This document shows, piece by piece, positions 42,006-49,568 of a stretch of 64,000 nucleotides of DNA. Under the pieces are notes generated by a model. It did not search any database. It was not told the origin of the DNA and was given only the letters and a program-made list of their open reading frames with translations. Each line of letters begins with the position of its first letter. The stretch's first letter is position 1. This DNA is from Eledone cirrhosa (taxonomy: Eukaryota): the NCBI GenBank assembly GCA_964016885.1, contig OZ024741.1, positions 235,848,001-235,912,000 on the forward strand. The letters run 5' to 3'. Position numbers and translations under genes: made by a program.

Positions 42006-42765
42006 TGTATATGTATATAATGCCAAACACGGTTAGGAGGACCCTCCAGATATGTCAAAGACATGACAACCTCTCTAATGCTGATGCCCTGATAAAATGC
42101 ACTTGGTAGAACATTGAAACACATGTAAGCGAGATGCAAACCCCCCAGCCTGTCTGGGAGGTCAATGGCTTCGCTTCAGTACAGACACAGCCTGTGAAAA
42201 CCCATCCAACACTTTCTAGTAGGAAAAATGGACGTTAAATGATGATATTATATATAACTGGATGATCATGCTGGTGTGCCTTTTGATCATAGGTCTGCTT
42301 TGTTACAGCTGTGCTGGGGCTAAACAGGGACAGCAATGCCACTGCTATCATCCATATCAACTATACCAAAGCTATGATCCTTATGAACAATGTCACTCCC
42401 ACACCCATCAACATTATCACTACCACCCCCATTAATAACTTCACTAACATCATCACCAACAGTATCACCACCAACCTAACCCTTATTATTGAACAGATTT
42501 ATGACAGAAGGCATTCCAACCCAGAGCATTGAGATTCTATGACTACATTATCCAATGTGTCTCTTTTTTCAAGTAGATTGTGGGAGTTTGCCTGCTATTT
42601 CTAACATTGCTGGCTCATTAACTCTAGTTGAGTGGTTAAGAAGTTTGCTTCACAACCAAGTGGCTTTTGTTGATCTAGAGCAAAGGTTCTCACCGGGGGG
42701 GGGGGGGCGTTTTGGAGCAAGGGGGGACGCTGAAGGCTCTTTACTCAGGTAAGTTTTATAACCCA

Positions 42766-43030
42766 CTAGCATTAAAGCCCGGCGTTGCTCGGGGTCATTA
42801 AGTTACCAAAGTTAGGTTGCACCACCCATTTTATGGCAGCACTTTTTTGTCTGCCAGGCACTGGGTGAATGAATTGCAGACCTGGAAGCATGAGCTGCGC
42901 CAGCAGTGACAATTGTAGTTTCGCCTATGGATATTATCTCTGTGCAAAAAAGTGTTGAAATTTATTGTTTCACAGTACTTGCGCAACACGCGCGTAGACG
43001 ATGCCAGCCGAACAACAGAGCTGCGATGGA
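42766..43030 (-). mobile_element. Helitron 3' end
   Basis: Minus strand CCCGAGCAACGCCGGG hairpin plus CTAG|T, matching the end motif at 7040-7067; 5' extent uncertain. Confidence 0.65.
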
Positions 43031-44203
43031 GTTGTTCTGCATGGTTGTCTGTGTGTTTTCTAAATTTAAGACAGTAGGGAGGGTTGTGATATGAGGGAGA
43101 GTTAGCTGTTGTTTCTAGCAGGTTTAGTGACCTCATAGAGGATATGTGTTTTCTAAATTTAAGACAGTAGGGAGTGGTGTGAACGGACAGTATCACCATC
43201 AAGCTTGGAAAGAGAAAGTAGCAGAAAGTATGAAGTTGTATATATTTTGAATGGTAGTAGAAAGAGTTCAGCAGTTTAAATGAGAGAGAAAAATCGTAAA
43301 ATATTGAGTTTTATCTATTTTTTGCATAATTGTGGGTGAAATTGAAAAAATTATCTGCGTCAAGACGCAATCGAAGCTATTTCGAATACTGAATTGTAAA
43401 TTTCAATTGAAGAAATTCTATATCGTAGATTTCTATAACGAAGGAGCATGACCACACACTGAGCTTTATAGATTATGATATTTGTATGTCTCTGAGACAG
43501 CCAGTGTGAATACATTTGAATGAAAACGAAAAAAATAAATGAAAGAAGCTTGTCAACGAATTCCCTAAGGAGATAAAAGAAATCAAAGAAAATGTAAATA
43601 AGGACAACATAAACTTTGACAACAGTTACAAGAACAACAGAAACGACAAGAAAAAGAACCAATGGTGATGAAAGGTGTGGGTGTATACATATACATACAA
43701 TCATACACACACATGCATACGTACATACATACACACACATATATACACACACAGGCCGGCGTTGGTGTTTGATTTGATGAGGTTGAAATGCTGTGTGATA
43801 TTTAATCTCCTTAGGTAATAAAATCTGGAGGCAAAATTCTCTCCTTACCAAAAAATAAACAAATCATGTCAACATATACACACACTTAAATATAAATGCA
43901 TGTATATATACAAATGTATAAATGCATAGCTATATACATACATAAATGTATGTATGTATGTAGATTTATATATATATATTATATATACACACACAGACAC
44001 ACATATACATATATATATTTTCTTTTTTCAGCCTGTCTAACTCTGGTGGTAGGGTCGGTAAAATCCATAGAGAAGTTCTGTGTTTCACTGAATTAATTCT
44101 TCAGATATTAGGTATTAAAAACAGAGTTATAAAGTAACTTGACTTTTTTTTTTTATTTTCATTGTTAATTTGATAACACACACACACACGCATATATTTA
44201 TAT

Positions 44204-47170: not shown

Positions 47171-48445
47171 AGATAGATAGATAGATAGATATGTACCAAA
47201 CACACACACACACATTTCTTACTCTCTCTTCCTCTCCCTCTTTCTCTCTCTCTCTCTCTCTCTCTCTCTCTATATATATATATATATATATGTACATATA
47301 TATATATATATATATATATATATATATATATATATATATATATATATACATTATGAAGAGAGAAGAAACATTTAGATATAATTAGTAATAAAATGTATCA
47401 TACCTAAACTGCTCCTAAATTCCTCGACTACGTAGTTTCGTGGCATAAACAAAAACAATATATCATAAAGACATAGAGTCCTTGCGAGGTCTGCCGACTT
47501 ATCAAGAGGATACCTCATTTTACTAGTCTCAAGAACGCGTCTACACGACGTGAGAAAGAATCCCAAAAGGCGGAGGGGGAGATAGTCACGCGATATAACG
47601 GTCGAGAAACAGAGCTAAGCCTCTTATAACCCCGAAGAAAATACCACGGAGGCGGAGGGGGTATTTATATCGAGGCCGCAGAAGAGGTGGTGAAGAAGGC
47701 GAGAAGTATATATATATATTATATATATATATACATATATATATATGGCGTTGTTATTTGACGTTGAAAAGAGCAGTGGCCTCTGACTCGGCAATAAAAA
47801 CTGGAGACAAAATTCTTTCTGTATCAAAAACATGGCACACACAGATACACACACACACAAGTGTGTGTGTGTGCATGCGTGTATGTGTGTATCTATCTAT
47901 GTATATATATATATATATAAGGGATACAGATATTGTTTGCTCACTGTCACTAAGCATCTCAATTCATTCATTGCAACTAAGTTTGTGATTGAGGCACTTT
48001 ATTTTGCAAGGTACTATTTTTCCCTTGAGTTTGTGATTCCAGAGAAAGGTAAGAAATTCTTCGTATTTTGCATCTTTTGTATTTTGACTTTACAGTTTGA
48101 ATTGTAGAATTGTCTATCCACTCAAAATATTAAACAGCTAACAGTGAAATATAGAATTTAAAAAAAAAGAAGCTTTTTCGACAGATCAAATCTTTGAGAA
48201 CATTCACGTCTATTTTTCAAAAATATATAATTTGAAATAGTTTACTTTTGTTTTGGACTTTAACTTTTTTGTATTTAATTCGTATGAGTATTTTTTAAAG
48301 ATTCTAACATAACTTGATTTGGCCCAGTAATCTACTGATATCAAGGTCAGTAGTATATTGAAAAATGGAAAAATAGGTAGGGAGACGTTTCGTGATTTCG
48401 AGGGGCAAAAGGGGGCATTTGGCCGAAATGGGTTGAGAACCTTTG

Positions 48446-49568
48446 ATCTAGAGGAAGCCTTTGACAGAACACCATGATCTGTCATCTGGTGGCCGTTGAG
48501 AAAATTAAATGTAGAAGAGTGGCTTGTGAGAATAGTGCTTGTTATGTCAGTAAAGTGAGAGTAGAAAGTTTAGTGAGGAATTCAAGGTACAGATAAGAGT
48601 GCATGAGGGTTCAATCCTCAACCCACTTCTGTTTATTATAGTCCCCCAGACCATAACAAAGAAGTTTTAAAGTGGCTGTCCTTAGGAACTTCTTTATGCT
48701 AATGATCTAGTTCTCATAGCAAAATCTGTGGAGGAACTACAGAATAAATTTCAACTGTGGGAAACAGAAATGAGAATCCAAAGAGTCTTTGATTACATCA
48801 GGGAAGTGGCCTTGCTCGATATGTAGAAAAGGAGTAGACATAGATTCTGTACAATGTATACAATACAAATCTTGGGTACATGAGAGGTGTAGTAGGATAG
48901 CATGCAGACTAACAGGAAAGATGACTTTATATGTAGTAGATGTTCAAATACAATTCATAGTAAAAGTGCCAGTGATATAAACCTTTTTCAATACTAGGAA
49001 GTATCCATAGAAGTGGTTGATAGCTTCTACTGCATAGGTGGTACAATTAACAGTGGAGGAGGGTGCTCTGTGAATATAGTAGCTAGAAATTGGACATGCC
49101 AGAAGAAGTTTAGTGAGCTACTACCACTTTTGACAAAAAAATGGTCTTCCCTTATAACTGAAAGATTGGTTGTACAACACCTGTGTGCAAGATGCGATGC
49201 TGCATGATAGAGAGATATGGACAGTGAACGTAGAGGATATGTGATGGTTGGAGAAAAATAAGCAAGCATGCTTTAATGGATTTGCAATATAATATGCATG
49301 AACGATAAAGTACAGATGAACTGAGTGAGAAATTTGGTATAAGAGGAACCTGATATAGTTGGCAAGAAAGAAAACTGCACTGGTATGGATGTGATGATCA
49401 TGGGTGAAGAAGTGCCAAGAAATCCTAGTTGAAGGAAGCTGCTGGTGGAGAGTTTGAAGATCACAGAGATATGGTGAAGGAACATGATATGCGGAAATAT
49501 GCTGTGCTGAAAAAGACATGTCTAACCCATGCAAACTTGAAACAGCAGACATAAAATGATGATGATGG
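48446..49568 (+). mobile_element. Degenerate RTE LINE; its 5' stub is at 42661-42680
   Basis: DLEEAFDR, ELLYANDLVLIA, GKWPCSICRKGV and (TGA)n tail. Confidence 0.88.

What the first reader, a model, noticed from the sequence alone, without database searches (positions are those of the whole stretch)
42673..48453. 5.77-kb hAT-bounded element with no visible transposase and CpG-rich cargo (Pack-type candidate)
Seen: 12-bp perfect TIRs (CAAAGGTTCTCA) and a perfect ATCTAGAG duplication. Joining the flanks rebuilds an RTE RT motif (AFVDLEEAFDR), so a hAT-type element inserted at this site. The interior holds a Helitron end, SINEs, a small hAT MITE, a Tx1 LINE and unassigned sequence. By eye it retains far more CpG than the flanks. 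Known: 8-bp TSDs with NTCTAGAN preference are typical of hAT Charlie/Buster elements. Inference: this is a non-autonomous hAT that carries captured genomic DNA, like a Pack-MULE. The alternative is that the cargo accumulated after insertion.
Basis: partly seen in the sequence, partly recalled or inferred. Interest (0 to 1): 0.75.

Follow-up and report, generated by a model that had tools for sequence, protein, structure and literature searches.

The report
Transposon built from two other transposons
This is one copy of an abundant, enzyme-less cut-and-paste transposon whose shared interior is not host-gene DNA but the SINE-laden front end of a second transposon family, likely inherited from a larger hybrid parent, and which later gained three private insertions at this site.

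Summary
The ends, the 8-bp duplication, the split RTE motif and the CpG contrast are real. The Pack-type reading is not supported: no host-gene fragment was found. About 3.4 of the 5.77 kb are private insertions into this copy: a complete 713-bp Helitron, a truncated Tx1 in a GATA tract and a 0.36-kb repeat. The other ~2.4 kb is a core shared by many dispersed, TSD-bounded copies (family A), so it did move as a unit. Its source is traced. The interior is the 5' non-coding region of a second, free-standing hAT family (Z), which already held a decayed SINE, a MITE and a SINE inside the MITE. Hybrid elements of 5.7-8.6 kb (family P) hold Buster ends, this Z region, half of Z's transposase and a full Buster transposase. 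All 38 A copies examined share P's junctions plus one further deletion. The GATA tract is hit repeatedly and independently by Tx1 (11 of 43 copies). CpG richness is a property of the young family. Verdict: a hAT-in-hAT hybrid lineage with transposon-derived cargo; a new variant of known composite elements, modest interest.

The parts
42651..42672 (+). RTE-type LINE, left part of the interrupted RT motif
42673..42680 (.). 8-bp target duplication, left
42681..42765 (+). Buster left end, part 1, with TIR 42681-42692
   Evidence: shared with families A, B, P
42766..43478 (-). Complete 713-bp non-autonomous Helitron, private to this copy
   Evidence: 39 other loci scored of 1547 candidates, most full length at 91-99%; TC start after A in 14 of 14 and CTAG end in 13 of 14 examined, none at a hAT junction
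43479..43523 (+). Buster left end, part 2, up to the Buster-Z junction
   Evidence: matches family B to this point, Z from the next base
43524..44881 (+). 5' non-coding region of hAT family Z (microsatellites, SINEs, MITE), inherited core
   Evidence: colinear with free-standing Z copy L250 and with P copies
44020..44175 (.). Short block shared by most A copies but absent from P and from Z copy L250; likely gained in the A master at a TA tract
   Evidence: no hit in 20 P loci; gap in L250; 71 bp match window 8765-8835 at 86%; bounds approximate
44204..44446 (+). Decayed, internally deleted SINE
   Evidence: very deep contig cover in four other organisms' runs, with joints at the deletion; SINE label recalled; bounds approximate
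44489..44863 (.). Old hAT-like MITE; flanking 8-mers agree at 5 of 8 bases
   Evidence: same state in the copies printed; 29 of 29 best hits lie in family A context
44586..44800 (.). SINE inside the MITE with a 17-bp duplication (44569-44585, 44801-44817)
   Evidence: empty site at 6 loci and in 9 of 15 scorable P copies
44882..47170 (-). 5'-truncated Tx1-type LINE in a GATA tract, private to this copy
   Evidence: RVT_1 and zf-RVT; 39 other loci scored of 5630 candidates, none continuing into the hAT; GATA on both sides here
47171..48321 (+). Rest of the Z 5' region, up to the bases before Z's start codon
   Evidence: matches Z copies L247, L248, L250, L253
47351..47709 (.). Unclassified high-copy repeat inserted in a TA tract, private at this position
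   Evidence: 98% copy at a different position in L042; very deep cover in X1-X3
48322..48326 (+). Five bases of Z transposase coding sequence, between the junction shared with P and the A-specific deletion
   Evidence: 38 of 38 A copies have this junction
48327..48445 (+). Buster right end with TIR 48434-48445
   Evidence: shared with P and B
48446..48453 (.). 8-bp target duplication, right
48454..49300 (+). RTE-type LINE, continuation, CpG o/e 0.14

Best explanation
This is a copy of a ~2.4-kb non-autonomous Buster-type hAT family (A) whose interior is the SINE- and MITE-laden 5' region of a second hAT family (Z), likely derived by one deletion from a hybrid Buster-Z parent and likely moved by that parent's transposase, with three later private insertions. 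Steps: (1) Z accumulated microsatellites, a SINE, a MITE and a second SINE upstream of its transposase (shown in free-standing copy L250). (2) Most of a Z copy came to lie inside a Buster element, 130 bp from its left end; Z lost its left end and the first half of its transposase and kept its right TIR (structure shown; route, insertion then deletion or gap repair, inferred). (3) This hybrid, P, amplified with an open Buster frame (shown) and gave deletion families A and C (junctions shown, direction inferred). (4) An A copy inserted in an RTE here and then received a Helitron, a Tx1 and a TA-tract repeat (shown).
For: 21 of 38 A copies have both ends and a TSD within 6 kb; TSD consensus has T at 4 in 35 and A at 5 in 37 of 38. 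All 20 P loci fetched hold a Buster transposase and the A block upstream; 7 of 20 had both TIRs and TSD in the fetched stretch, 2 of 7 more on extension. P holds residues 402-792 of hAT protein P0039 with a Dimer_Tnp_hAT hit above cut-off and Z's right TIR in 17 of 20. Four of 8 Z loci fetched share the upstream block; L250 has its own left TIR, a 7-of-8 TSD and the full SINE-MITE-SINE array. A carries P's two Buster-Z junctions to the base, and 38 of 38 A copies share one more junction. The majority Buster frame of 19 P copies is open for 593 codons.
Against: On a 420-column tree of the shared block, P and C form a clade (100/99) that excludes A, and Z falls among A subgroups. So A does not descend from the sampled P copies; an older P-like master or sequence exchange is needed. 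Purifying selection on P's Buster frame is only suggestive (shared N/S 1.40 against private 3.03, p=0.09). A ~0.2-kb block of A is in neither P nor L250. No Buster copy without the Z block was found (one search tested only one predicted empty site, which proved wrong). The origin of the non-repeat parts of Z's 5' region is unknown.
Confidence: 0.85

Rival explanations
1. Pack-type capture: a non-autonomous hAT picked up host genomic or gene DNA and spread it.
For: The core is unrelated to the Buster transposase and moved as a unit to many loci. One ~0.2-kb block seems to have been gained by A itself. Splice-like motifs are visible by eye.
Against: The core maps to another transposon's 5' region. 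None of 48 six-frame peptides of copy L064 passes a Pfam cut-off. The one coding-looking peptide gave 2 chance-level hits in 1.8 billion proteins.
Confidence: 0.05
2. All cargo accumulated at this locus after a short MITE inserted.
For: True for 3.4 kb: Helitron, Tx1 and the TA-tract repeat are private.
Against: The 2.4-kb core with both SINEs and the MITE is shared at 2-6% divergence across loci.
Confidence: 0.02
3. A arose directly when Buster ends copied in a piece of Z by gap repair, with P formed separately or by exchange with A.
For: In the tree A groups with Z, not inside P.
Against: A keeps five bases beyond Z's internal deletion, a junction otherwise seen in P, and has the same left junction as P.
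Confidence: 0.08

Closest known systems
Buster-family hAT non-autonomous elements, e.g. Mar of Drosophila willistoni (PMC3517528, passages seen)
   Same: 8-bp nnnTAnnn duplication, short TIRs, origin by internal deletion of a transposase-bearing copy
   Different: Here the parent is a 5.7-8.6-kb hybrid holding half of another hAT; that paper gives hATs as under 4 kb
MER6, a Mariner MITE carrying a V-SINE piece (PMC6887750, abstract and outline seen)
   Same: SINE sequence spread passively by a DNA transposon burst
   Different: Here two SINEs and a MITE passed through two hAT families in turn
Animal Pack-TIRs, e.g. frog Pack-hAT-N8_XT (PMC8277862, passages seen) and plant Pack-TYPE elements (PMC8903248, passages seen)
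   Same: Foreign interior between TIRs, many copies with separate TSDs
   Different: Those carry non-transposon or coding DNA with a transposon-free parent locus; here the source is itself a transposon
Tx1 of Xenopus in Tx1D, crocodilian Tx1-Mar, and microsatellite-targeting Kibi/Koshi (PMC4494074 and PMC6719617, passages seen)
   Same: A Tx1-type LINE inserts again and again at one site in a DNA transposon
   Different: The target here is a GATA tract used genome-wide, not a sequence unique to the transposon

Membership tests
hAT, Buster family | 8-bp target duplication with nnnTAnnn consensus | tested here: met
   (T at 4 in 35, A at 5 in 37 of 38); definition in PMC3517528
hAT, Buster family | Short TIRs shared with a Buster-type transposase element | tested here: met
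   P and B share both ends; relatives named FAM200/ZBED8/SCAND3-like; no transposase tree was built
hAT, Buster family | Mobilisation of A by the P transposase | not testable with these tools
   inferred from shared ends and the open majority frame
Pack-TYPE / Pack-TIR | Non-autonomous, TIR- and TSD-bounded, multicopy | tested here: met
Pack-TYPE / Pack-TIR | Interior captured from host coding genes | tested here: not met
   short or non-coding exons could be missed
Pack-TYPE / Pack-TIR | Parent locus of the interior is not a transposon | tested here: not met
   the interior is the 5' region of hAT family Z
Helitron (nested piece) | TC start, CTAG end, AT target, no duplication | tested here: met
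Tx1 clade (nested piece) | RT with zf-RVT and a preferred target | tested here: met
   GATA tract at the 5' junction in 10 of 19 copies, 4 unresolved
Tx1 clade (nested piece) | Placement in the Tx1 clade by RT phylogeny | not tested

The most novel reading that the evidence does not exclude
An active Buster transposon swallowed most of another hAT family, kept ~4 kb of it as an intron-like leader upstream of its own transposase, and spread it, so that two SINEs, a MITE and a landing site used by a GATA-targeting LINE in a fifth to a quarter of copies all rode a relay from one hAT family to another: a multi-tier hitchhiking system in an animal genome.
Probability: 0.55. Interest if true: 0.45.

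Novelty: new variant of a known kind. Interest (0 to 1): 0.3.

Why it matters
It shows how a large TIR element with a 'foreign' interior can look like a Pack element while carrying only transposon DNA, a caution for Pack-TIR calls in repeat-rich genomes. The Z-P-A series has base-resolved junctions and free-standing donors, so it is a clean case for studying how hATs exchange parts, how much extra DNA a Buster tolerates, and how SINEs gain copies without retrotransposing. It does not bear on host gene evolution.

Tried and rejected
Host-gene cargo: a PDZ-like and a Walker-B-like peptide seen by eye; no Pfam family above cut-off among 48 peptides, 2 chance hits. Family B as the parent: it shares about 120 bp at each end with A and lacks the first half of the transposase. 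An 8-mer found on both sides of the Z piece in P was first read as Z's TSD; rejected because free Z continues further left, and the empty site it predicted has no match. SINE-less copies as an ancestral A lineage: not supported, since they carry both subfamily markers and Z copy L250 has the SINE; my first 'empty' flag was too loose and was redone. Seven of 20 divergence values (0.10-0.28) are alignment artefacts; one search gives 0.02-0.08 for them. Rfam: only microsatellite-driven hits below threshold. PDB and Pfam did not recognise the family B fragments. Atlas search unavailable. No RNA holder listed. Earlier-finding look-ups by sequence and by words were empty.

Full report
Observation. 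The 12-bp inverted repeats, the 8-bp duplication and the CpG contrast (0.72 against 0.44 and 0.31) are at the stated places, and the rejoined flanks give the RT motif. Contigs of runs X1-X3, one sample that may be the assembly's own, cross the left junction without mismatch; the right junction was not among the listed pieces.

The family. The right 526 bp matched 39 other loci at 90-94% (40 scored of 1624 candidates). I fetched 38 of them; 21 of 38 have a left end and a TSD with at most two mismatches within 6 kb, at lengths of 2.1-5.8 kb. The TSDs follow the Buster consensus (definition in PMC3517528, passages). Copies share a ~2.4-kb core, with L064 colinear with the focal element minus three blocks. 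Well-aligned copies lie 2-6% from the consensus and the focal copy 3.3%. An exact 25-base right end occurs 172 times, control 0; this count mixes families A, C and P.

Private insertions. 42766-43478 is a whole Helitron with its own family (39 other loci scored of 1547 candidates) and proper ends in the 14 copies examined, one of them ending one base off. 44882-47170 is a truncated LINE (RVT_1, zf-RVT); none of its 39 best relatives continues into the hAT. 47351-47709 recurs at 98% at another position in L042. Together these are about 3.4 kb, 58% of the element.

Source of the core. Left-end hits gave family B (16 of 20 fetched loci, leaving aside one A copy, have both ends and a TSD), which holds only the second half of a transposase and shares about 120 bp per end with A. 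Its relatives are named FAM200/ZBED8/SCAND3-like, the closest being P0002 at 79%. Searching with the first half of P0002 led to family P. All 20 P loci fetched carry the transposase and, upstream, the A block; 7 of 20 showed both TIRs and a TSD (5.7-8.6 kb), and 2 of 7 more did on extension. Between the A block and the Buster gene lies the second half (residues 402-792) of another hAT transposase, P0039 (the label ZMYM1-type is recalled). That family, Z, stands free in the genome (19 matches; also L233). Four of 8 Z loci fetched share the upstream block. L250 has Z's own left TIR, a 7-of-8 TSD and the SINE-MITE-SINE array. The junctions read to the base: Buster to 43523, Z from 43524 to 48321, five bases from mid-Z transposase, Buster from 48327. 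All 38 A copies have the last junction. Seven of 7 loci of a third family, C, share a different deletion of P.

How it works. A encodes nothing and keeps ~130 and ~120 bp of Buster ends, so it likely moved with transposase supplied in trans (inference from established hAT biology). P is the likely supplier: the majority frame of 19 of 20 copies is open for 593 codons, and shared changes are less often amino-acid changing than private ones (1.40 against 3.03, p=0.09), whereas the carried Z fragment looks neutral (2.67 against 3.30, p=0.72; 18 copies). Against a simple story, a tree of the shared block (70 rows, 420 columns) puts P and C in one clade that excludes A and places Z among A subgroups. 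A therefore comes from an older P-like master or has exchanged sequence; the tree is short, its bootstrap had not settled and it has no outgroup.

Nested SINE. The SINE in the MITE has a 17-bp duplication. It is absent, with one copy of the duplication left, at 6 loci in A context and in 9 of 15 scorable P copies, but present in Z copy L250. Precise loss between the duplications, at least twice, is the likelier reading (inference).

Tx1 site. Eleven of 43 scorable A copies (67 examined, the focal copy counted; 26 were picked by likeness to the focal MITE) hold a Tx1 3' end in the same GATA tract and orientation, with lengths from 124 to 3838 bp where both sides were reached, and two identity classes (93% and 75-79%), so the insertions are independent. 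A recount in a smaller pool gave 5 of 27 A, 2 of 6 C, 1 weak of 13 P and 1 of 1 Z. Elsewhere this family has a GATA tract at the 5' junction in 10 of 19 copies, with 4 unresolved. Tx1 elements that target microsatellites or DNA transposons are known (PMC4494074, PMC6719617, passages).

CpG. The family consensus has o/e 0.75, and the focal copy has lost 12 of 85 CpG positions against 13 of 483 other C/G positions. Other A copies average 0.63 inside against 0.51 in flanks, higher in 13 of 20. The contrast here reflects young inserts in an old, CpG-depleted LINE, not special cargo. PMC9476566 (passages) reports gene-body rather than transposon methylation in octopus; that this genome is octopus-like rests on recalled SINE likeness and on earlier notes.

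Host genes. None of 48 peptides passed a Pfam cut-off, and the best candidate gave chance hits. Contigs of four other organisms cover much of the core as several short pieces, so related sequence exists beyond this species; contigs give no copy number.

Comparison and novelty. It works like a multicopy Pack element in moving foreign DNA between TIRs, but fails the two defining tests, gene-derived interior and transposon-free parent (PMC8903248, PMC8277862, passages). SINE carriage by a DNA transposon has a precedent in MER6 (PMC6887750, abstract). Searches listed no account of a Buster carrying half of a second hAT, and the passages read in PMC13282606 mention none; repeat libraries such as Repbase and Dfam could not be searched, and no supplements were read, so it may be catalogued there. 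Verdict: real element, Pack reading not supported, a hybrid hAT lineage of modest interest (0.3).

Noticed in passing
L123 and other family B copies (L106-L125): High-copy ~2.4-kb Buster derivative (150 scored of 2338 candidates) in which a 40-bp tandem repeat, apparently grown from transposase sequence, stands where the first half of the gene was.
   Followed up: partly
L217-L223: Family C: a second deletion derivative of P that fuses the Z and Buster transposase fragments at one shared junction.
   Followed up: partly
window 43755-43870 and 47740-47835: Two diverged copies of a ~95-bp motif in Z's 5' region, each between microsatellites; the first holds a stretch like a Buster right TIR, partly lost in this copy. 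Origin unexplained.
   Followed up: partly
P copies, e.g. L197-L216, just right of Z's right TIR: The 8-mer after Z's right TIR equals an 8-mer made by a small deletion at window 47766-47773, mimicking a TSD; coincidence or a repair scar.
   Followed up: partly
L005 1501-1931, L052, L144: Head-to-tail family copies separated by one target duplication, suggesting tandem insertion.
   Followed up: no
G000:C1:347469223-347724377: At least six family copies within 260 kb with identical scores, probably a tandem segmental duplication.
   Followed up: no
window 15001-17000: About 2 kb almost without C or G, probably a long TA tract.
   Followed up: no
window 47351-47709: Unclassified 0.36-kb CpG-rich repeat with very high copy number that sits in TA tracts.
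   Followed up: partly
L045, GATA tract: A few bases resembling a Tx1 tail between duplicated target sequence; possibly an extremely truncated insertion.
   Followed up: no
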